Below, piece by piece: positions 3,809-41,918 of a DNA stretch of 44,488 nucleotides; position 1 is the stretch's first letter, and each line of letters opens with the position of its first letter. A model generated the notes under the pieces. It saw only the letters and a list, made by a program, of their open reading frames with translations, made no database searches and was not told where the DNA came from. Both the position numbers and the translations under genes were made by a program. The stretch comes from Escherichia phage vB_EcoD_Opt212, in the sequence record NC_073055.1; one strand, written 5' to 3'.

Positions 3809-4300
3809 TTATGCGGCGTTTCGCCCGATTTTCTCGGCAACGTCCCACTGCTTACCATCAAATAGTGCCTGCCTGCCGATTGCACGACGGACAAGCCCCT
3901 TGAGCACTGCCCCGCCTTGCTTGCGGAATTGTGGCAGCGTAGCACGGACCTTTGCCCAGTCACCCAGGCGGATCGCATCGTCGAAGTCTCCGGCGACGTC
4001 GTCCGGCATGATCGGACCAGGACCGGCATTGATAACCAGGTCCACCAGCGCGTCGAATTGCGCCTGGTTGATGCTCGGGTGTGCGTACTTGTTTACCCAG
4101 TTCTCGGCATACGCCACGTCGCGCTTGAGTAGCTCCAGTGCTTCCGCACGGGTAATGCTCCGCGGCGGATTAGTGCCGGTGTGACCATAGCCCCAGGTAT
4201 ACAGGCCGCGGGCCTGCTCTTTCTTAGTCGCGAAATACGGCACTGGGCTGAATTGCTCCCATGCTGCCGTAAATCTCAGACCGTTGTCACTGAATCGCAT
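3809..4300 (-). CDS. endolysin (GH24 lysozyme-like)
   Basis: 163 aa; GYGHTG and surrounding motifs typical of phage T4/lambda-type lysozyme; downstream of two membrane proteins. Confidence 0.8.
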   Translation of the reverse strand: MRFSDNGLRFTAAWEQFSPVPYFATKKEQARGLYTWGYGHTGTNPPRSITRAEALELLKRDVAYAENWVNKYAHPSINQAQFDALVDLVINAGPGPIMPDDVAGDFDDAIRLGDWAKVRATLPQFRKQGGAVLKGLVRRAIGRQALFDGKQWDVAEKIGRNAA

Positions 4301-4532
4301 GTTTTACCCCATTCAAAACAGCATTACGCAGTGTGCGCAATGCAAACAGCCAGATTAACGCGGTCCAGGTGGTGTCAGATACGTCTCCGGTTTGCAACAG
4401 TCCGATAATGCAGACCATCGCCGTAAGCAGATATAACACCCGACCGAAGAAGCCATCCTGGACGGACGGCGCATACACGTTAAACAGGGACGAAGCCCCT
4501 ATGATAACAAACAACAGGACGGAGATAATCAT
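4287..4532 (-). CDS. holin/antiholin-like membrane protein
   Basis: 81 aa, two hydrophobic segments, overlaps endolysin start. Confidence 0.5.
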   Translation of the reverse strand: MIISVLLFVIIGASSLFNVYAPSVQDGFFGRVLYLLTAMVCIIGLLQTGDVSDTTWTALIWLFALRTLRNAVLNGVKHAIQ

Positions 4533-4819
4533 TTTGCGCCACCCGGAAGTCGGAACGACTCAATAGTCTCCCTGATCCGGGCGGCTATTGGCATCCAGAA
4601 GATTGCAGTTACGAAGCCCAAACCGGCGACAGTGCGCTCGCCAGATAAGCCAGCCCACTCGGCGATAGCTGGCGCACCAAATATGGCACACAGGAAGCCA
4701 ACTACGACATATAAAACGAAGTTCAACGGCCCTTTCGTTGCCTCGCCATGAATGCGTGCGCCTACGAAGCCACCAGCAAGACACGCAAGGGCGAATAACC
4801 ACTCGTTTAGCTTATCCAT
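4529..4819 (-). CDS. holin-like membrane protein
   Basis: 96 aa, multiple predicted TM segments, ATGA overlap with next gene. Confidence 0.5.
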   Translation of the reverse strand: MDKLNEWLFALACLAGGFVGARIHGEATKGPLNFVLYVVVGFLCAIFGAPAIAEWAGLSGERTVAGLGFVTAIFWMPIAARIRETIESFRLPGGAK

Positions 4820-22309: not shown

Positions 22310-22343
22310 AAAAAGGGGCCGCATGGCCCCTTCTATTTATTTC
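22310..22343. terminator. bidirectional terminator between convergent blocks
   Basis: AGGGGCC-GCAT-GGCCCCT hairpin flanked by A-run and T-rich tail. Confidence 0.55.
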
Positions 22344-24502
22344 TTCAACGCCGCGATCTCGGCCTTCAAATCCTCCACCTGCTTATTGAGATATTGAACA
22401 CACCCCATCAAGTCCATTACGATCGGGTTAACGTCGATGGATGGGCGGTCCGTCATCTTCTCCCCGATCTTGTTGCCGTCTTCGTCGAGAATATCCTCGA
22501 TCGGGAACTCGTGGTGCTTAACGTACTGCGGCGCAATTAACTCCGCTTCTTCGGCGATAATACCGAAGCGCTGGCGGGCCTGCTCATCATCCTTATACAC
22601 GAAGTTAACAAGGCGCTGGCTGTTAATGCGGTCCATAGCTTCGCTTGCGTCCGCATCGGCTATATCTTTCTTATACTCGCGGCCGGATGTGCCTTGCAGC
22701 GCGATAGTCCCCGATGCGGTAGTCGGGAAGTTAAGCATAATTTCGCCGGTACGGTTCCCATCCTTACGTCGCATAAACAGGCGAAAATATCGAGTGCCGC
22801 TCTTTTCTAGTGCCGGTTCGAAGAACGTCCTACCGCCTACGACGTCGTTCGGCACGGTTTCGCCTACGGTGTAGTACGGTTCGAATGCAAATTGCAGGTA
22901 AGACCCGCGGCTTACTGCCAGGCTACCAACGACATCTGACCCTGAACTGTTCACCGTAAACTTGCCCGGCAAGGTCATCTCGCCTTTGGTGTTAAAGTCG
23001 ATGCCTGAACTCTGCGCCGTCTCCAGGTTAGTGATCGCCAGGCGGGCGTAAGTCTCACCGTCGATATTCGCACGGACGCGCAGCTTTGCTTCCGAGTGTA
23101 AAGAAGTGCCAACACGATATTCAGACACAATGCTTCCGCCGTCTGCCGTAGTGCCCGCTGGCGGTTTAGTGGCGTCGCCGTTGATTACCGACCACGACGT
23201 ATTAGCGGCGGCGAATCCGCCTGACGCTCGAATAACCCACACGCCCATGAAGTTATTGGGGCGCAACTCCGATACGGTCCGGCCATAGATCGCGTTGACC
23301 TTCGAGGCGTCCATGTTAATGATGCCGTAGGAGACTGCGCCGTTACCAACAGGTAGGTTGCCTGGCGACCGATATTGCGAAGCCGCTCCACCAGCCCCGT
23401 GGAACGCGCCACTTTCATGGTTGATAATACTTGCGGCCCCGCCGCCGTGTAATTCGACGCGGCCTGTGATGTTAGGTGCTCCTGATTCGTAGATATACCC
23501 ATCGTTGCCACTTTGCCCGCCGTCGCCCCTGCCGAACAAGCCGAATATGGACCCAGGCTGAACGCCGTTACGGTCCGGCACTCGGAAGGTAGTTGTGCCG
23601 TCACCCGTAGAATACTTGCCGCGCTGATTTGGGTTAGCCAGCCAGGTATCGTCACTAATTGGCGACAGCATTTGCGCATACGCCCACAACTCAGGCCAAT
23701 CAGCGCGGTTAAGAAGTTGCCCGTCGGATACGACTTCATAAGGCTGGATATATGCGCGGCTGTCCCGTAAATGGAAATCACCTACGCCATAGTTCATGAC
23801 GCCGTTCATTGTAGGGCCAACCGTGCCCACGTTGATAAGGTTCTGCACCCAGCGCTTTGTCGCGGCGTCGTAGTCACCTACAGGGTCGCCCGCCAATGGC
23901 GTTGCCCCGTCTGGTCGAACGTTAAGCCAGGCTTGCGGTTTGTCGGTGAGTCCTGCCAGGTTGCCGGATTTGGTTAGCAGGTTATCCGCGTTAACGCTTT
24001 GCGCCCACTCCTCGGCCTGATCGCGGAATCCCTGCGCTGCGGATTTCGATGCTTCGGCTTGCGCTGCGAGGTCGCGCATCTCAACGGGGTCTACGTTCTT
24101 AAGCAATTCCGACAGATATCCCCATGACATGCCCTGCATAACCTGCCCGTTAGGTAACGTCACTGTGATTTCTTCAGCGTCGCCGAAGATTGCACGCCAG
24201 TTGTTTTCATCTGCAATCATCAAGCGCAATGCTTTTTGCGCCTGTACGGTAACGCCCATCGTTGCCAGTGACATGGTGTCGCGCTTAACACCATCCCAAG
24301 CAAGGCCGGTTGCCGTTGGGCCGTCGAACGGCAACACCAGCGTAAGCGCCGTGTTACTTTCGATTGATGCGATCGCCACTGTGTAAGGCACTTGTCCTAC
24401 CACCAGCGTTAAGAAGTCGCCAGCTTTAAACGCGGTAAACGTTGTGCCGACTCCTACTACCGCCGTGCTATTGTTCGTTACGGATAGCGTACCCGCTGCC
24501 AT
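22337..24502 (-). CDS. side tail fibre with C-terminal intramolecular chaperone (S74-like) domain
   Basis: 721 aa; Gly-rich central region; C-terminal GTSGREYKKDI...RFGIIAEEAELIAP pattern. Confidence 0.7.
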   Translation of the reverse strand: MAAGTLSVTNNSTAVVGVGTTFTAFKAGDFLTLVVGQVPYTVAIASIESNTALTLVLPFDGPTATGLAWDGVKRDTMSLATMGVTVQAQKALRLMIADENNWRAIFGDAEEITVTLPNGQVMQGMSWGYLSELLKNVDPVEMRDLAAQAEASKSAAQGFRDQAEEWAQSVNADNLLTKSGNLAGLTDKPQAWLNVRPDGATPLAGDPVGDYDAATKRWVQNLINVGTVGPTMNGVMNYGVGDFHLRDSRAYIQPYEVVSDGQLLNRADWPELWAYAQMLSPISDDTWLANPNQRGKYSTGDGTTTFRVPDRNGVQPGSIFGLFGRGDGGQSGNDGYIYESGAPNITGRVELHGGGAASIINHESGAFHGAGGAASQYRSPGNLPVGNGAVSYGIINMDASKVNAIYGRTVSELRPNNFMGVWVIRASGGFAAANTSWSVINGDATKPPAGTTADGGSIVSEYRVGTSLHSEAKLRVRANIDGETYARLAITNLETAQSSGIDFNTKGEMTLPGKFTVNSSGSDVVGSLAVSRGSYLQFAFEPYYTVGETVPNDVVGGRTFFEPALEKSGTRYFRLFMRRKDGNRTGEIMLNFPTTASGTIALQGTSGREYKKDIADADASEAMDRINSQRLVNFVYKDDEQARQRFGIIAEEAELIAPQYVKHHEFPIEDILDEDGNKIGEKMTDRPSIDVNPIVMDLMGCVQYLNKQVEDLKAEIAALKK

Positions 24503-24522
24503 AGCTAAATCCTCGTAATTGG

Positions 24523-24550
24523 TTGCAATCCTGGCTGAGCGGTGTAATAC
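24523..24550 (+). promoter_or_regulatory. candidate promoter (TTGCAA-N16-TAATAC) for lipoprotein gene
   Basis: overlaps ATTGGTTGCAA motif in divergent region. Confidence 0.3.
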
Positions 24551-24581
24551 TAAAACTCAACCAAATATAGGGGATGATACC

Positions 24582-24800
24582 ATGAAAACTTTAATTATGA
24601 TTTGTGCGGTTCTTTTGTCCGGTTGCGCCGACATGCCCGCTAAAGTCTGCGACGCCACATACCAGAATAGCGGCATGGATTATGTGGTCCCTGTGTATGG
24701 TGTTGCGGACTTCTCCGGGCATAAAATGCTAAGGGCGGGTTATCCGTTTAGCTTCCAGTACGTGTCGGTAGACCATTTCAAAAACACCACCTGCGAATAA
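24582..24800 (+). CDS. lipoprotein (candidate Cor/Llp-like superinfection exclusion protein)
   Basis: 72 aa; signal peptide with lipobox LLSGC; opposite strand, embedded between tail fibre and tail genes. Confidence 0.55.
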   Translation: MKTLIMICAVLLSGCADMPAKVCDATYQNSGMDYVVPVYGVADFSGHKMLRAGYPFSFQYVSVDHFKNTTCE

Positions 24801-24820
24801 TCCCCGAAAGGGGATTTTCT

Positions 24821-25495
24821 TCAATCATAATTGGCCGTGTTAATCGCCATAATCGCGTTGCCGTTGTTAGTATACCCCACCACACCCCCCGTGGCGTTCC
24901 CCGACGACGCTGCCGATATACGCGTTCGCGACCCATCAAATCTGGCCCCCGTGTACGCCGTTACCGATATTACTTGCGGCTGGCCCTGCACAAAAAACCG
25001 GATCAGCGTAGACCCCAATATGCCCGGAGCGACGGCGTAGCTGCCATTTAGCGTCTGGTCAATGTTAATCCCCCCGTTAGCGCCTGGCGATCCGACGGTA
25101 ACTAAATCGCTTAGTACGCGACTCTCATTAGTAAGCACTAGCTTCCCCGTCTTATCCCAAATAGCGAAGCCCCACCGCGGAAGGGTCTGTGGGAATATGG
25201 CAAAGATGTAAGCCGTCATCGTGAAGCCTTGCCCGAATGGATTGCTGGCGCTCACCTTCACCACATTACCAACGCGAGAAGACCCTACGACGGTCGGCCG
25301 GGCGGTGTGCGTAGTTTTCACAAACGCTATTGCAGGGTAGTCACCACCCAAATTAATATCGGCAGCCGCCGACTGCGCAGTGCCGTTAGCCGAAGACCCA
25401 ACAACCACACGGCGGAATAGACAAAACGGCGTCGATTCTGGTGTGATAAACGGGTTGCCGTTTGGTAAGTCAATCAACGCGCCGTAATTAGCCAT
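24821..25495 (-). CDS. hypothetical tail-associated protein
   Basis: 224 aa; Gly/Ser/Thr-rich; coupled downstream of gpJ-like gene. Confidence 0.5.
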   Translation of the reverse strand: MANYGALIDLPNGNPFITPESTPFCLFRRVVVGSSANGTAQSAAADINLGGDYPAIAFVKTTHTARPTVVGSSRVGNVVKVSASNPFGQGFTMTAYIFAIFPQTLPRWGFAIWDKTGKLVLTNESRVLSDLVTVGSPGANGGINIDQTLNGSYAVAPGILGSTLIRFFVQGQPQVISVTAYTGARFDGSRTRISAASSGNATGGVVGYTNNGNAIMAINTANYD

Positions 25496-25797
25496 TATGC
25501 TCGCTCCACAAAAACAATAACGTCACATTCAGATGCGGAGTAAACCCCGCCACCTACCGCACTTGCCGCGGAAACCGTGATAGTGTTCCCGCTGGCGGTT
25601 ATTCTGCGGCCTGGCCCGACCGCGCCTTTATCCAGTGCGACCACGTATCCGACCTTCATCCCCGCCGGTACAGGGAATGACCATGCGCCTGATTTTTGTC
25701 CTTCCGCAAGATGAATCCTTCCGATCACGCTTACCGGTTTAATGCCGTAGTTGTTTGGGCGTCCTTGCGCGTCCCACGTTGCGATACCGAATGCCAT
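25495..25797 (-). CDS. hypothetical tail-associated protein
   Basis: 100 aa; TAATG overlap with next gene. Confidence 0.5.
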   Translation of the reverse strand: MAFGIATWDAQGRPNNYGIKPVSVIGRIHLAEGQKSGAWSFPVPAGMKVGYVVALDKGAVGPGRRITASGNTITVSAASAVGGGVYSASECDVIVFVERA

Positions 25798-25833: not shown

Positions 25834-28800
25834 CTACCAGCTACCAGTAAGCTCACCAATCTGCACGCGGAGAACGCCGTTTCCGTCCTTCACGCTGATT
25901 CTTGTGTTCGTCTGTTTCATCCCGCCGCCGCTACCGGTGCCCAGGTTGATAAACGTTCCATCTTTCCCTAAGCGCCAGCCGCGCGTGCTGCCGTCGTAGT
26001 TATTCGATTGCAGCGTGTCTGTTATCTGCGCGAAGTTGATGGACGCGTTCTTGATGCGTGCCGTGTCGATATACACCGCGCCACCGTCCACAATAAACGC
26101 AGACGACAGCGTCCCATTGGACGGATGCATGATGTAGAACTGGTCCGCCTTGAACGCAATACGCGATTTAACCTCGTTGCCAGACGTCACAACGGAAAGC
26201 TGCATACCCGCATCATAATAAGTCCTGTTATATGTCACGCCAGCCTTAAGGCTATACGTGGCGCTACCACCAGAGTGGTTAAACGAGGACGTCATCTTCT
26301 GCTCGATAGCGGCGGACTGCTGACCGAACTGTGTAGCGACCTGGGTCTTATATTCCGCCAGCGCTCCCGCCACGTCTGCGGTTGCCGTTTGTACCTGCTG
26401 GATGGCGGCTTCCTGTTCCCCGAACTTAGCGGCAACAGTTTGCTGGTACTGGGCGAACGCTTGTTCCTGTGTGCTCTGCGCGGTCTGCAACGTGTGGATC
26501 GCAGCTTCCGCGTCATCAAGTCGCGTGCCGATCAACGTCTCCAGTTGAGCGACCGCCTTGTGGGCGTCCGCCGCCACGTTATACGCGACCGAGATTTCCG
26601 CATAAATACCCTTGTACTCGGCGCGGGCGTTGAACAATTGCTGCGCGTCGGTGAGCATCGCCTCGTAAATACCCTGCGGGATCGTGTTGATTGCTTCCTG
26701 GAAGCGTTTACCATCCTCGGAAGTCAAGAACTCGTCATCAAGCCCCTTCATGTACTCGTCAACTTTGTCACTCACCTGCCCTTCAAACGGGGCCGACCAG
26801 TCCGACAGGTTGCCGATTTTATCCGCTACACGGGCGCGCAACTGCTGGTAAATTCCGAACTCCAGCGATGTTTGCGCATACTCCGCCCCCGGATATGGGA
26901 CGTTGGTAAGGAATTTCCATTCAGTCTCACCGGTCTTGCGCACTTCAAGCTCGGTGTACGAGATATCAGTAGCGGCGTTGTTGTGGTTCCACTTCCACAA
27001 GATCTGGTGAAGGCCCGAAATAGCGTTGGTGATGATTGGTGCGTTAAGCCCACCGAGACGACCTTCCACCGGCGTGATGGCGGACGACACCCACGGAGAT
27101 GAAATCTCGCCCATACCGATCGCGCGGACGCGTGCCTGGTAGTTACCGGAGAACACGTTAGGGATGTGCGCCCCATTCGACGCCGTGCGTGGGATATTCA
27201 CCCAGTCGTTACCCCACTGGATTTCCATATTCTGAAGGCTGGTACGCCTCCACTGGATTTCATACACCACGGCATCCTTCACCGGAGGGAATACAATATC
27301 CACGTTGGTGATTAGCTGCCCTTGCGATGAAATCTGCGACGGGGTGATGGTCACGGATTCCGGCCCCTTCATTACCCCGTCAGGCACTTGCGTAAAGATA
27401 CCCGGATCAAGGCGCGCGCCATTATCAACGGCATCATACTTGCTATCGTTGTACTCAATCCCGCGCACCGAGAAAGTGCTCGTAGAGTCGTCATACTCCA
27501 GGTCGGTGATGCGGAATTTCTGCAACTGGATATCGTCGCCATCAACGCAAAACGGCTGGTCAGGAATAGGGTTGGCGTCCAGTGCGGTTTTTAGCGTTAC
27601 CTTGTTGCCGTTGACGCTGGCGATCTCGCGAGTCTCCACATTACCGCTATCGGTGCGTACCAGGAACTTATCGCCAGGGCGGAATGTGATTTCGCTGTCC
27701 GTGTTCAGCACGGTACGAGTTCCGGGGTCCGACAACAGTCGACCGCCGCGCGTCTCAAAACCGCCAGAAATGTTTGTATCCGCGATCGCGACTACGCTAC
27801 CGGGAATAAAGAATAACCCTTCCATGCCAACTTTAAAGCTAACTTGCTGGTCAAGCTGGTTGGAAATTAGCGCCCAGTGCCCGCGACGCTGCGCTTCAGA
27901 TTCACGCGTACAGCCGATCGCCGTAATATCGAGACGGTTAATCTTATGGCGGCGTACCAGTTCGACACGTTGCCCCGTTGCGATAGCATCTTCATAGTGG
28001 TTCTTCGGGTTGCCGTATGCTACTGCGAACGTGGAGTACCGAGTTTTCTGGCTACCGGACGCGTAGTCGAAGCGCCCATCAATAACCGAGGCGTTGGTGA
28101 TAGTGTGCGACACTGCTGCGACCGGTTGGTCACTGACGATATTCAACATCTGGTTGCCCCACCAGGTCATTCCGGCGAAGATGGCGGCTAAATCCTTAAG
28201 CACGGTCCAGGCATCCGTCTGTGACTGAATGTACATATCATTCTTAAAGCGGATTTCTCGGCCACCGTTGCCGTCGCTGACCAACTGATCGCAGCGCTGC
28301 GCAATCTGGTAGAGCGCGTATCGGTTTAGCATTTGCGGTTTGATACGCCGACCGAGGCCGAAGCGCTCAGTAATACAAATATCGTACCAGTGCCACGCAG
28401 GGTTATCCGTCCATGCGCGTTTAAACGTGCCGTCCCAGTCCCCGGAATAGGTATGATTGATCGGGTCGTAGTTGTTCGGTATTAGAACTTTGCGACCTTT
28501 GCACTTAATGGACACGCGAGGGATGTTCTGGAACGCTTTGGCGTCGAACTCCACAAACAACAGCGCGGTTAGCGGGTAACGCAGGCGGGCGTCAATAATC
28601 TCAGTGATGGACTGCACCCGGATATCATTAACCACTTTCGCCGATGTGGAGTCTGCCGTTATGCGGTGCACCTCCACGCGCCAGCCGGTGTTAACGTTCG
28701 GAGGTAATTCGATGCGGTGGTCGCGCTCATATAGCGACATTGTTTTACCAACGGCGGCGAATCTGAACTCACGCGGGTCGGCGTTATCCGTATACACAAC

Positions 28801-29253
28801 TATCTTATAGTCGATGCGCCCGCCCACCAGGTCGCCATTATCTTCGTTAGTGTACAAGGCTGGAATGCCGATTCGAATGCGCACGGCGTCAAGACTGGTG
28901 TCATTAATCTGGCGCACCCACGGCGTGCCGTTTTCCAGTTTTACGCCTACGGATTGCTCACTTTCCACCGCTGAAAATCCGTGGATCACGTCCTGGTGCT
29001 GTGTGCCTGGGCGGAACTCCACGCGCGCGCCGGGGAAGTTTTCCGACAGGTCGGCGTTCTGGATCGGAGTGCCGTCCAGATATACACGCTGCCGTAATTC
29101 GCTGTCGCTGGTAATACTTTCGAATTCCCCTTCCCCTAGCGCAAGCAAGATGCGGATTTTAGCCAGGGAATGCAGGCTATCCGGCGTTTCCTGCGGGGTG
29201 TGCTGTTTGCCGCCGCCGCCTTTATGCCCTGTGACGTCGTAGATAATCGTCAT
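25834..29253 (-). CDS. tail tip / host specificity protein (lambda gpJ-like)
   Basis: 1139 aa; size and position after gpI-like gene; N-terminus resembles gpJ family. Confidence 0.8.
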   Translation of the reverse strand: MTIIYDVTGHKGGGGKQHTPQETPDSLHSLAKIRILLALGEGEFESITSDSELRQRVYLDGTPIQNADLSENFPGARVEFRPGTQHQDVIHGFSAVESEQSVGVKLENGTPWVRQINDTSLDAVRIRIGIPALYTNEDNGDLVGGRIDYKIVVYTDNADPREFRFAAVGKTMSLYERDHRIELPPNVNTGWRVEVHRITADSTSAKVVNDIRVQSITEIIDARLRYPLTALLFVEFDAKAFQNIPRVSIKCKGRKVLIPNNYDPINHTYSGDWDGTFKRAWTDNPAWHWYDICITERFGLGRRIKPQMLNRYALYQIAQRCDQLVSDGNGGREIRFKNDMYIQSQTDAWTVLKDLAAIFAGMTWWGNQMLNIVSDQPVAAVSHTITNASVIDGRFDYASGSQKTRYSTFAVAYGNPKNHYEDAIATGQRVELVRRHKINRLDITAIGCTRESEAQRRGHWALISNQLDQQVSFKVGMEGLFFIPGSVVAIADTNISGGFETRGGRLLSDPGTRTVLNTDSEITFRPGDKFLVRTDSGNVETREIASVNGNKVTLKTALDANPIPDQPFCVDGDDIQLQKFRITDLEYDDSTSTFSVRGIEYNDSKYDAVDNGARLDPGIFTQVPDGVMKGPESVTITPSQISSQGQLITNVDIVFPPVKDAVVYEIQWRRTSLQNMEIQWGNDWVNIPRTASNGAHIPNVFSGNYQARVRAIGMGEISSPWVSSAITPVEGRLGGLNAPIITNAISGLHQILWKWNHNNAATDISYTELEVRKTGETEWKFLTNVPYPGAEYAQTSLEFGIYQQLRARVADKIGNLSDWSAPFEGQVSDKVDEYMKGLDDEFLTSEDGKRFQEAINTIPQGIYEAMLTDAQQLFNARAEYKGIYAEISVAYNVAADAHKAVAQLETLIGTRLDDAEAAIHTLQTAQSTQEQAFAQYQQTVAAKFGEQEAAIQQVQTATADVAGALAEYKTQVATQFGQQSAAIEQKMTSSFNHSGGSATYSLKAGVTYNRTYYDAGMQLSVVTSGNEVKSRIAFKADQFYIMHPSNGTLSSAFIVDGGAVYIDTARIKNASINFAQITDTLQSNNYDGSTRGWRLGKDGTFINLGTGSGGGMKQTNTRISVKDGNGVLRVQIGELTGSW

Positions 29254-40608: not shown

Positions 40609-40638
40609 TTGCAATCCGCGTATTGGTTGCACTATATT
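40609..40638 (+). promoter_or_regulatory. candidate promoter TTGCAA-N18-TATATT with tandem ATTGGTTGCAC motifs
   Basis: direct reading; upstream of plus-strand island. Confidence 0.4.
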
Positions 40639-40667
40639 GGTTGCACACCAACAACGAGGACACAAAA

Positions 40668-41183
40668 ATGAGACTGACAAAAGACATTAAAAACCAGATT
40701 CTGGCTAACATCCTGCGCGACCACGAAATCGCGACCGAAGCCAAATCAATCATGATGGACTCTCGAAATCTGGCGTACGCCATTACGATGGACTGTATGC
40801 CGGAAGGCATTCATTCGTTCGCCGAGCTACGTGAGCGCATTGCAGCAATCGGCGGTGACCCGTCGCAGATGTACGGCGTCTGTGTGTACACCAACAAGGC
40901 GACGTATAGACATGACGCCGACAGCCCATATGGTGTAGGCAGCGTTTACGACGCCACTTTCGAAATCAACGCAGGCGGAAACGTCCGTACCGTGTCATTG
41001 AGCGGAGACGGACACCGAGTCCGAGTATATCGCGGATACGGGGAGTATAAATACATGAATAAACTGTCTCCCGATCTCGGCGATATTGTGCCTGGGTATG
41101 AGGAAATTTTGTTAGCGTCAGTGTGCGAAGTCGATGACGACGGGAAAGCGCTGCCGATATATATATGCCACGCGGTCGTATAG
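40668..41183 (+). CDS. hypothetical protein (opposite-strand island gene 1)
   Basis: 171 aa; GAGGAC RBS; no recognisable motifs. Confidence 0.55.
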   Translation: MRLTKDIKNQILANILRDHEIATEAKSIMMDSRNLAYAITMDCMPEGIHSFAELRERIAAIGGDPSQMYGVCVYTNKATYRHDADSPYGVGSVYDATFEINAGGNVRTVSLSGDGHRVRVYRGYGEYKYMNKLSPDLGDIVPGYEEILLASVCEVDDDGKALPIYICHAVV

Positions 41184-41434
41184 ACTACCCGGCGGACCAT
41201 GATTTCTGTAAGCGCCTGGACCGTAACGACAAGGCCCGCCGTGAGTTGCGTGCTAAGTATGACGCGTTCAAACTAACTGTTACCGGCGTGCTGGATATGC
41301 ACAATACCGATAAGAAGCTGATCAAGGCGTGGCCTGAAGTGGAACAGTTCATTCCTTACCCGGGCAAGCCGAAGTCCACGGCGGTGGCGCTGGACGTGAA
41401 GACGTTAAACGAGATTTGCGGTATTCCGCGCTAA
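41165..41434 (+). CDS. hypothetical protein (opposite-strand island gene 2)
   Basis: 89 aa; overlaps gene 1 by 19 nt; start uncertain. Confidence 0.4.
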   Translation: MPRGRIDYPADHDFCKRLDRNDKARRELRAKYDAFKLTVTGVLDMHNTDKKLIKAWPEVEQFIPYPGKPKSTAVALDVKTLNEICGIPR

Positions 41435-41435
41435 T

Positions 41436-41460
41436 AAAAGGGGCCATTACGGCCCCCGAA
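41436..41460. terminator. bidirectional hairpin between island and spanin genes
   Basis: GGGGCC-AUUAC-GGCCCC; o-spanin stop lies within it. Confidence 0.4.
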
Positions 41461-41686
41461 TTATTTGCTGCAACTCCAGGACCTGCGCCCTCAGCTTCGC
41501 CCCGCATTCCATATTTTTCACGTCAATCATCAAATCTTCGTCGGGGTCCGCGGACGGGTTATCGAACTTGCACGGCGGTCGCAGTGCCGACTCCGTTAGC
41601 GGCATCAACGGCGCTTTGCTTGATCCGCACGCGCTCAGCATCAAAACTGCAATCAGGACGGTTAGGACGCGTAACATATTTAACAA
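41447..41686 (-). CDS. o-spanin (outer membrane lipoprotein, Rz1-like)
   Basis: 79 aa; signal peptide with lipobox LSAC; Pro-rich; start embedded in i-spanin-like ORF. Confidence 0.6.
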   Translation of the reverse strand: MLNMLRVLTVLIAVLMLSACGSSKAPLMPLTESALRPPCKFDNPSADPDEDLMIDVKNMECGAKLRAQVLELQQIIRGP

Positions 41687-41918
41687 CCTCTTTCGTGATA
41701 GTCCGGTATTCTACGTCGCGGGCTTGTTCGGCCTGCACGGAGCGCTCAATAACTTTAGTTTGCTGCCGTTGGGCATCTGCTTGCGCTTCTTGCGCCGCCT
41801 CCGCCGCTACGCCAGCGCGATAGGAGTCACCTAGCCAGAATCCTACCACCAGACCGATAACCAGCCCAATCGCTGCATACTTAATCACGCCATAACCCCC
41901 GGTTTTTAAGCTGTGCAA
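41559..41918 (-). CDS. i-spanin (Rz-like)
   Basis: N-terminal TM (IKYAAIGLVIGLVVGFWLG) then charged helical region; track start is TTG, alternative GTG at 41888 with GGGGG RBS. Confidence 0.55.
   Translation of the reverse strand: MHSLKTGGYGVIKYAAIGLVIGLVVGFWLGDSYRAGVAAEAAQEAQADAQRQQTKVIERSVQAEQARDVEYRTITKEVVKYVTRPNRPDCSFDAERVRIKQSAVDAANGVGTATAVQVR

What the first reader, a model, noticed from the sequence alone, without database searches (positions are those of the whole stretch)
24503..24820. Opposite-strand lipoprotein gene between tail fibre and tail-tip genes (candidate receptor-blocking exclusion protein)
A 72-aa lipoprotein (signal peptide, lipobox LLSGC) is encoded on the plus strand with its own promoter-like element, inside the minus-strand tail operon and next to the receptor-binding genes. 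This placement matches known superinfection-exclusion lipoproteins that mask the phage's own outer-membrane receptor (T5 Llp, Cor of T1/phi80-like phages).
Basis: partly seen in the sequence, partly recalled or inferred. Interest (0 to 1): 0.55.

Follow-up and report, generated by a model that had tools for sequence, protein, structure and literature searches.

The report
Cor receptor-blocking lipoprotein gene, already known

Summary
Window 24582..24800 (+) encodes a 72-aa prelipoprotein (MKTLIMICAVLLSG|C). It lies convergent to a 224-aa gene and divergent from the lateral tail fibre gene, inside the minus-strand tail module.

It is a Cor superinfection-exclusion lipoprotein:
- PHROG 1119, E=3e-26, full length.
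- NCBIfam NF047972 'phage exclusion lipoprotein Cor', 56 bits against a cut-off of 31.
- 100% identical to gp19 of Escherichia phage JLBYU37.

The window is a Dhillonvirus genome, about 95% identical in DNA to JLBYU37. Its J, 100-aa and 224-aa tail-tip proteins are 99-100% identical to those of JLBYU37, which is experimentally FhuA-dependent. The same J / 100 aa / 224 aa / cor cassette occurs in N15, mEp043, ES18 and T1-like phages.

The most likely mechanism is an outer-membrane inner-leaflet lipoprotein that binds FhuA from the periplasm and shuts its phage-binding loops. This is inferred, not shown. Novelty: already known. Interest: low.

The parts
24523..24551 (+). Promoter-like element for cor: -35 TTGCAA (24523-24528), 17-nt spacer, extended -10 TG (24543-24544), -10 AATACT (24546-24551)
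   Evidence: Read from the sequence. In 9 Dhillonviruses each hexamer varies in 1 of 6 columns and the spacer in 9 of 17; the TG is invariant. It falls below the generic scan's 9-of-12 threshold. No transcript data.
24569..24574 (+). Shine-Dalgarno-like AGGGGA, 7 nt before the ATG
   Evidence: Sequence; conserved as AGGRGA in 8 of 9 relatives (AAGAGA in SECphi4).
24582..24800 (+). cor: a 72-aa prelipoprotein. Signal peptide is residues 1-14; the lipid-modified Cys15 codon is 24624-24626; the mature part is 58 aa with Cys23, Cys71 and an AGYPF motif
24799..24822 (+). Hairpin AATCCCC-GAAA-GGGGATT followed by a T-rich tail, between the convergent cor and 224-aa genes; a likely intrinsic terminator for cor
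   Evidence: RNA fold -13.2 kcal/mol, z = -2.0. The pair flanking the CCCC/GGGG core changes compensatorily among relatives (T-A, G-C, A-T). The same hairpin follows cor in T1-like Sd1. The generic terminator scan of the window did not call it.
24821..25495 (-). 224-aa gene of the cor cassette (homologue of N15 gp23 / ES18 gp31); part of the presumed FhuA receptor-binding locus
   Evidence: PHROG 425 E=8e-70. 99.1% identical to JLBYU37 gp20. Same position in N15, mEp043, ES18 and Sd1. No signal peptide or transmembrane segment.
25495..25797 (-). 100-aa gene of the cor cassette (homologue of N15 gp22 / ES18 gp30)
   Evidence: PHROG 557 E=1e-32. 100% identical to JLBYU37 gp21. No signal peptide or transmembrane segment.
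25834..29253 (-). GpJ-type central tail fibre / tail tip protein, 1139 aa
   Evidence: Pfam PF24801, PF13550 and PF09327. 99.8% identical to JLBYU37 gp22, the predicted FhuA-binding protein of that phage (PMC10373560).
22337..24502 (-). Lateral tail fibre with a C-terminal intramolecular chaperone, 721 aa; divergent from cor
   Evidence: Pfam Peptidase_S74 E=1.7e-9. PHROG 6921. 87% identical to JLBYU37 gp18, with an internal indel.

Best explanation
The gene is cor, the superinfection-exclusion lipoprotein of the FhuA-specific host-recognition cassette (J, 100-aa gene, 224-aa gene, cor) of a Dhillonvirus coliphage.

Proposed course of events:
1. The gene is transcribed on its own, against the direction of the late tail genes, from a host sigma-70-type promoter and ends at its own hairpin. 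It can therefore be made independently of, and probably earlier than, the tail proteins.
2. The precursor is exported, lipidated on Cys15, and cleaved by signal peptidase II.
3. [quoted passage not shown]
4. The 58-aa beta-rich mature domain is clamped by a Cys23-Cys71 disulphide. It binds the periplasmic face or plug of FhuA, as T5 Llp does.
5. This locks FhuA in a state whose extracellular loops (EL7 and EL8 in the Llp complex) no longer accept the phage tip.
6. Infected cells and their debris then stop adsorbing this phage and other FhuA-dependent phages.

Shown here: gene, family membership, cassette, selection, and a predicted fold closest to Llp. Inferred: expression timing, lipidation, sorting, FhuA as the target, and the periplasmic allosteric mechanism.
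For: Family membership:
- PHROG 1119 'Cor superinfection exclusion protein', E=3.1e-26, residues 1-72.
- NCBIfam NF047972 lamb_exclu_cor (equivalog), 56.3 bits against a cut-off of 31.
- tblastn finds 237 phage records, including N15 Cor, HK-series and mEp Cor, and ES18 gp32.
- The profile search returns hundreds of proteins that their sources name 'phage exclusion lipoprotein Cor'.

Context:
- The same J / 100 aa / 224 aa / cor order occurs in N15, mEp043, ES18 and Sd1.
- The opposite-strand orientation is shared with ES18 and T1-like Sd1.

Receptor:
- Cor and the 100-aa protein are 100%, J 99.8% and the 224-aa protein 99.1% identical to JLBYU37.
- JLBYU37 infection requires FhuA and is abolished by deleting FhuA loop 8 (PMC10373560).
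- The cassette is reported to track FhuA use in BASEL phages, Dhillonvirus included (PMC13164509; PMC8594841).

The gene is real: dN/dS 0.07-0.20, and variation concentrated at codon position 3.

Lipoprotein features: the lipobox pattern is met here and in 116 of 121 relatives, +2 is Ala or Ser in 108 of 116, and there are exactly two further Cys in 115 of 116.

Fold:
- AF2 mean pLDDT 83.5, with 91-93 across residues 21-70.
- BFVD hits after the Dhillonvirus protein itself are T5-like 'receptor-blocking protein' and lipoprotein entries.
- The family profile's best PDB sequence hit is also Llp, E=0.026.

Mechanism of Llp: periplasmic binding and inward folding of EL7 and EL8 (PMC9586334). This fits the absolute loop-8 dependence of JLBYU37.

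Expression signals: conserved promoter hexamers and a covarying hairpin.
Against: - No experiment on this allele is known to me. It is only 28-52% identical to the Cor proteins outside Dhillonvirus (52% at most to T1-like phages, about 40% to N15 and the HK/mEp lambdoid phages).
- The molecular mechanism of Cor itself has not been determined experimentally (stated in bioRxiv 10.64898/2026.03.26.714494).
- Sequence similarity to Llp is marginal: phmmer finds nothing, the profile gives E=0.026, and the Foldseek E-value against the PDB is not significant, with Llp at rank 9.
- The promoter-like element is below the generic scan threshold, and the hairpin was not called as a terminator.
- Cor-like lipoproteins also occur in phages that use BtuB (PMC13164509), so family membership alone does not fix the receptor.
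Confidence: 0.85

Rival explanations
1. It is a Cor-family lipoprotein that excludes phages by a route other than Llp-like periplasmic plugging of FhuA. For example, it could act through or together with other outer-membrane proteins, or from the cell surface.
For: The mechanism of Cor is stated to be unresolved (bioRxiv 10.64898/2026.03.26.714494). [quoted passage not shown] Sequence similarity to Llp is marginal.
Confidence: 0.12
2. It is a Cor-like lipoprotein that blocks a receptor other than FhuA (for example BtuB, or another TonB-dependent transporter).
For: Cor-like proteins are reported in BtuB-using phages (PMC13164509). This allele is only about 40% identical to the Cor proteins of N15 and the HK/mEp lambdoid phages.
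Against: The whole tail-tip cassette is 99-100% identical to that of JLBYU37, which needs FhuA (PMC10373560). The full three-gene cassette is reported only with FhuA users (PMC13164509).
Confidence: 0.03
3. It is an outer-membrane spanin subunit or another lysis-associated lipoprotein, not an exclusion protein.
For: It is a small phage lipoprotein predicted to go to the outer membrane, as o-spanins do.
Against: A separate overlapping spanin pair lies at 41447..41918 (-). Its lipoprotein reads MLRVLTVLIAVLMLSAC... and has 7 prolines in the 79-aa ORF. Holins and endolysin lie at 3812..4819. Cor has only 3 prolines in its 58 mature residues, no partner i-spanin, and matches the Cor models full-length.
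Confidence: 0.01
4. It is a chance ORF or a decaying remnant with no function.
For: It is a short ORF in an intergenic gap, and there is no Pfam hit.
Against: dN/dS 0.07-0.20. Full-length family matches. Conserved in 237 phage records. RBS, promoter hexamers and hairpin are conserved.
Confidence: 0.01

Closest known systems
Cor superinfection-exclusion lipoprotein of phi80, N15, HK022, mEp167 and T1 (NCBIfam NF047972; PHROG 1119)
   Same: Size, signal peptide plus lipobox, two conserved Cys, and the AGYPF motif. Position after J and the two small genes homologous to N15 gp22 and gp23. Association with FhuA-dependent phages. The opposite-strand orientation is as in ES18 and T1-like phages.
   Different: Only 28-52% identical to Cor proteins outside Dhillonvirus. 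Carried by a phage with no annotated integrase, so it acts during lytic growth rather than from a prophage. In N15 and mEp043 the gene is co-oriented with the tail genes.
Cor of Dhillonvirus phages (JLBYU37 gp19, Envy gp20, Sloth, bob, McMelon and others)
   Same: It is the same gene: 100% amino-acid identity to JLBYU37 gp19 and 79-96% to the other Dhillonvirus alleles, with identical context.
   Different: Nothing of substance. The window differs from JLBYU37 elsewhere in the genome (about 95% DNA identity).
T5 Llp (lytic conversion lipoprotein; PDB 8A60 chain B, 7QJF)
   Different: No significant pairwise sequence similarity and only E=0.026 with the family profile. Llp lies next to the dedicated receptor-binding gene pb5 in a T5-type genome, not in a J / gp22 / gp23 cassette.
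Rtp45 and the Oekolampad SE lipoprotein (LptD-blocking exclusion lipoproteins of small siphophages)
   Same: The same logic and the same locus: an exclusion lipoprotein encoded beside the receptor-binding module downstream of J, and exchanged together with it (PMC12685063; PMC8594841).
   Different: A different receptor (LptDE, not a TonB-dependent transporter). According to that paper the mechanism is also different: steric clashes rather than reverse allostery through a plug.

Membership tests
Cor (phage exclusion lipoprotein Cor) | Full-length sequence match to the curated family model above its cut-off | tested here: met
   NCBIfam NF047972 (equivalog), 56.3 bits against a cut-off of 31, residues 2-72. 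PHROG 1119, E=3.1e-26, residues 1-72.
Cor (phage exclusion lipoprotein Cor) | Small prelipoprotein: N-terminal signal peptide with a lipobox and a Cys at about position 15-20 | tested here: met
   MKTLIMICAVLLSG-C15. It fits the PS51257-type pattern, applied as a regular expression, as do 116 of 121 relatives. No LipoP or SignalP was available, and lipidation itself is not testable here.
Cor (phage exclusion lipoprotein Cor) | Two further conserved cysteines and the conserved AGYPF core | tested here: met
   C23 is invariant; C71, A52, Y54, P55 and F56 are present in at least 90% of members; G53 is invariant across the 121 sequences. Exactly two mature-part Cys in 115 of 116.
Cor (phage exclusion lipoprotein Cor) | Genomic position directly after the tail-tip gene J and the two small conserved genes (N15 gp22 and gp23 homologues) | tested here: met
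   Window order is J (25834..29253), 100 aa, 224 aa, cor. The same order is found in N15, mEp043, ES18 and Sd1.
Cor (phage exclusion lipoprotein Cor) | The carrier phage uses FhuA as its terminal receptor | tested here: inconclusive
   Not measured for this phage. J, the 100-aa and 224-aa proteins and Cor are 99-100% identical to JLBYU37, which is experimentally FhuA-dependent (PMC10373560).
Cor (phage exclusion lipoprotein Cor) | Expression excludes FhuA-dependent phages and inactivates FhuA transport functions | not testable with these tools
   Needs plating and uptake assays. No published test of a Dhillonvirus allele was found in the papers read.
T5 Llp | Llp fold (four-stranded beta structure with a terminal disulphide) | tested here: met
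T5 Llp | Recognisable sequence homology to Llp | tested here: inconclusive
   phmmer finds no hit at E<=10. The family profile gives 8a60_B as best PDB hit, but at E=0.026 and mostly over the signal peptide and first strand. Foldseek E=0.14.
T5 Llp | Binds the periplasmic face and plug of FhuA and folds EL7 and EL8 inward | not testable with these tools
   No complex prediction tool was available. The published AF3 model is for a T1-like Cor only (PMC13164509).
o-spanin (Rz1-like) | Encoded in or overlapping an i-spanin gene, within or near the lysis genes | tested here: not met
   cor lies between tail genes with no overlapping partner. A separate overlapping spanin pair is at 41447..41918 (-), and holins and endolysin are at 3812..4819.

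The most novel reading that the evidence does not exclude
The Dhillonvirus/T1-type arrangement has cor on the opposite strand, with its own conserved host-type promoter and a hairpin shared with T1-like phages. It could mark a self-contained, early-expressed immunity gene that travels with the FhuA-binding module. This roughly 40-50% diverged allele might also have a different exclusion spectrum, for example only phages that depend on FhuA loop 8, or a different contact surface on FhuA from those of phi80/N15 Cor and T5 Llp.
Probability: 0.12. Interest if true: 0.3.

Novelty: already known. Interest (0 to 1): 0.1.

Why it matters
It matters little as a discovery. The gene is annotated as a superinfection-exclusion or Cor protein in near-identical published genomes, and the cor cassette of FhuA-dependent small siphophages, Dhillonvirus included, has been described. 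Its practical value is as a marker. Together with the two upstream genes and J, it predicts that this phage uses FhuA. It also predicts that cells infected by it, and their debris, become refractory to other FhuA-dependent phages, which is relevant when combining phages in cocktails. The one open scientific point is general to the family: no experimental structure or mechanism exists for any Cor protein.

Tried and rejected
- Pfam gave no hit for Cor or for the 100-aa and 224-aa proteins.
- phmmer of Cor against PDB sequences found nothing even at E<=10.
- The generic promoter and terminator scan did not report the proposed promoter or the hairpin. Its three promoter-like hits (one over the start codon, two on the minus strand) do not fit the gene. 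The same scan found no promoter upstream of cor in Sd1 or ES18, so support for the promoter rests only on conservation within Dhillonvirus.
- The first word-indexed protein search found only 6 close relatives. A profile built with N15, ES18, mEp043, Sd1, PMBT35 and Stx2-86 sequences was needed to reach the family.
- The longer 93-aa reading from TTG 24519 was rejected. It would bury the signal peptide, and no homologue outside one annotation (SECphi4) uses it.
- The spanin hypothesis was rejected.
- A published attempt found no structural matches for their T1-like homologues (PMC13164509).

Full report
**What is at the coordinates.** The interval 24503-24820 is the whole gap between two minus-strand genes. 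One is a 721-aa tail fibre (22337..24502; Pfam Peptidase_S74 intramolecular chaperone at its C-terminus). The other is a 224-aa gene (24821..25495). Beyond that lie a 100-aa gene (25495..25797) and a 1139-aa GpJ-type tail-tip gene (25834..29253; PF24801, PF13550, PF09327). On the plus strand an ORF runs from ATG 24582 to TAA 24798-24800, with AGGGGA 7 nt upstream. It encodes MKTLIMICAVLLSGCADMPAKVCDATYQNSGMDYVVPVYGVADFSGHKMLRAGYPFSFQYVSVDHFKNTTCE (72 aa). The N-terminus has a Lys at position 2, a hydrophobic core, and the lipobox L-S-G-C with Cys15 and Ala at +2. It satisfies the PROSITE-type prokaryotic lipoprotein pattern that I applied as a regular expression.

**Is it a real gene?** Three lines of evidence say yes.
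- Against six other Dhillonvirus alleles, dN/dS is 0.07-0.20, with dS up to 0.86.
- Across nine aligned phages the variable columns are 13, 9 and 40 of 73 at codon positions 1, 2 and 3.
- The antisense ORFs over it are 43 aa or shorter.

**What it is.**
- PHROGs matches it end to end to phrog_1119 'Cor superinfection exclusion protein' (E=3.1e-26).
- NCBIfam matches NF047972 'phage exclusion lipoprotein Cor', an equivalog model, at 56.3 bits against a curated cut-off of 31. Pfam has no model for it.
- tblastn against 50,697 phage records finds 237 records, all covering at least 80% of the protein. It is 100% identical to gp19 of Escherichia phage JLBYU37 ('putative super-infection exclusion protein'), 79-96% to other Dhillonvirus phages, about 45-52% to T1-like phages, and about 40% to Cor of N15 and the HK/mEp lambdoid phages and to ES18 gp32.
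- A profile search returned 334 proteins, many of them named 'phage exclusion lipoprotein Cor' by NCBI or UniRef in enterobacterial genomes.
- In 121 aligned members Cys15, Cys23 and Gly53 are invariant. Cys71 and the A-G-Y-P-F core are conserved in at least 90%.

**What the window is.** The first 25 kb match JLBYU37 at 94.6% identity over 97% of their length. The genus is Dhillonvirus. Against JLBYU37, Cor and the 100-aa protein are 100% identical, J is 99.8% and the 224-aa protein is 99.1%. The lateral fibre differs by an internal indel. JLBYU37 was isolated as a FhuA-dependent phage. It is completely blocked by deletion of FhuA loop 8 (PMC10373560). No integrase is annotated in JLBYU37.

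**Context in other phages.** The order J, about 100 aa, about 224 aa, cor recurs in N15 (genes 21-24), mEp043, ES18 (genes 29-32) and the T1-like phage Sd1. In N15 and mEp043, cor is co-oriented with the tail genes. In ES18, Sd1 and all Dhillonviruses examined it is on the opposite strand. The literature describes this:
- The locus downstream of gpJ carries the receptor-binding module with its cognate exclusion protein, and it is exchanged horizontally among Drexlerviridae, Dhillonvirus, Nonagvirus and Seuratvirus (PMC8594841).
- The three-gene 'cor cassette' tracks FhuA use in BASEL phages, Dhillonvirus included (PMC13164509).
- LptD-targeting relatives carry a different exclusion lipoprotein at the equivalent place (PMC12685063).

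**Expression signals.**
- The generic sigma-70 scan did not report a promoter for cor.
- Even so, TTGCAA (24523-24528), a 17-nt spacer, TG (24543-24544) and AATACT (24546-24551) form an extended -10 type element.
- In nine Dhillonviruses each hexamer varies in 1 of 6 columns and the TG is invariant. The spacer varies in 9 of 17 columns, about the rate of third codon positions.
- After the stop codon comes the hairpin AATCCCC-GAAA-GGGGATT followed by TTCTTC. It folds at -13.2 kcal/mol (z -2.0).
- The base pair flanking the CCCC/GGGG core changes compensatorily among relatives (T-A, G-C, A-T). The same GCCCC-GAAA-GGGGC hairpin follows cor in Sd1.
- Independent, probably host-polymerase-driven transcription is thus plausible but not demonstrated.

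**Fold.** AlphaFold2 with the 121-sequence alignment gives mean pLDDT 83.5, with 91-93 for residues 21-70, and four beta strands.
- Foldseek against the PDB was not significant, with Llp at rank 9 (E 0.14).
- Foldseek against BFVD finds the Dhillonvirus protein first. T5-like entries follow, including one named 'Receptor-blocking protein'.
- By sequence, the family profile's best PDB hit is again Llp, but only at E=0.026. Pairwise phmmer finds nothing.
- This agrees with published statements that Cor and Llp share about 20% identity, including the disulphide (PMC9586334), and belong to one structural family (bioRxiv 10.64898/2026.03.26.714494).
- In mature numbering the Cor cysteines are 9 and 57. 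Llp's disulphide is Cys11-Cys58.

**Most likely mechanism.** The following steps are inferred.
1. The precursor is exported, lipidated at Cys15 and processed.
2. With Ala at +2 it escapes inner-membrane retention (the E. coli Lol +2 rule, general knowledge) and is anchored in the inner leaflet of the outer membrane.
3. There it binds the periplasmic face of FhuA, as Llp does. Llp binds a non-native plug conformation and causes loops EL7 and EL8 to fold inward over the phage-binding site (PMC9586334).
4. Phages with this tail tip depend absolutely on loop 8, so such a closure would block the phage's own adsorption as well as that of other FhuA users.
5. In a phage without an integrase, the benefit is expected during lytic growth: protection of the infected cell, and of progeny from adsorbing to debris. 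The cited papers discuss this role for T5 Llp and T1 Cor.

**Rivals.**
- A different mechanism, through other outer-membrane proteins or from the surface, cannot be excluded, because no Cor structure or complex exists.
- A different receptor is unlikely, given 99-100% identity of the whole recognition cassette to a FhuA-dependent phage.
- A spanin is excluded. A separate overlapping spanin pair lies at 41447..41918 (-), and holins and endolysin lie at 3812..4819. Cor also lacks the proline-rich character of o-spanins.
- A chance ORF is excluded by the selection and homology evidence.

**Verdict.** This is an already known and already annotated gene, so interest is low. The open points are experimental: lipidation, exclusion spectrum, transcript timing and the Cor:FhuA structure. 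Apart from the structure, they are not conceptually new.

Noticed in passing
window 40623..41434 (+): Two consecutive ORFs (40623..41183, 186 aa; 41165..41434, 89 aa) together match the single 254-aa gp38 of JLBYU37, in two different frames. This suggests a frameshift, or a sequencing or assembly error, near 41160-41183.
   Followed up: partly
window 22337..24502 (-): The lateral tail fibre is 721 aa against 805 aa in JLBYU37. Identity is 94-100% everywhere except aligned residues about 150-250, where it collapses. This points to an indel or cassette exchange in the fibre shaft, with the rest kept.
   Followed up: partly
window 24821..25797 (-): [quoted passage not shown] They have no signal peptide, no transmembrane-like stretch (maximum 19-residue hydropathy 1.2) and no Pfam or NCBIfam hit. 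The names look unfounded, and the literature treats the locus as the FhuA receptor-binding module (PMC8594841).
   Followed up: partly
L008 3001-3231 (Salmonella phage PMBT35, PP554580.1): The cor homologue on the plus strand of the locus is not annotated. Instead a 71-aa 'hypothetical protein' is annotated on the opposite strand over the same bases, which is probably a strand mis-call. In GeorgBuechner (L017 2421-2639) cor is annotated only as 'hypothetical protein'.
   Followed up: no
window 24799-24822; L004 3731-3748: The hairpin after cor (xCCCC-GAAA-GGGGx) is shared between Dhillonviruses and the T1-like phage Sd1. It sits at the point where the downstream 224-aa gene switches between two alleles among Dhillonviruses. 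It may therefore mark a recombination boundary of the exchangeable cassette.
   Followed up: partly
window 41447..41918 (-) and 3812..4819 (-): The lysis functions are split. An overlapping spanin pair sits among the head-morphogenesis genes, about 7 kb (across the window ends) from the holin/holin/endolysin cluster.
   Followed up: no
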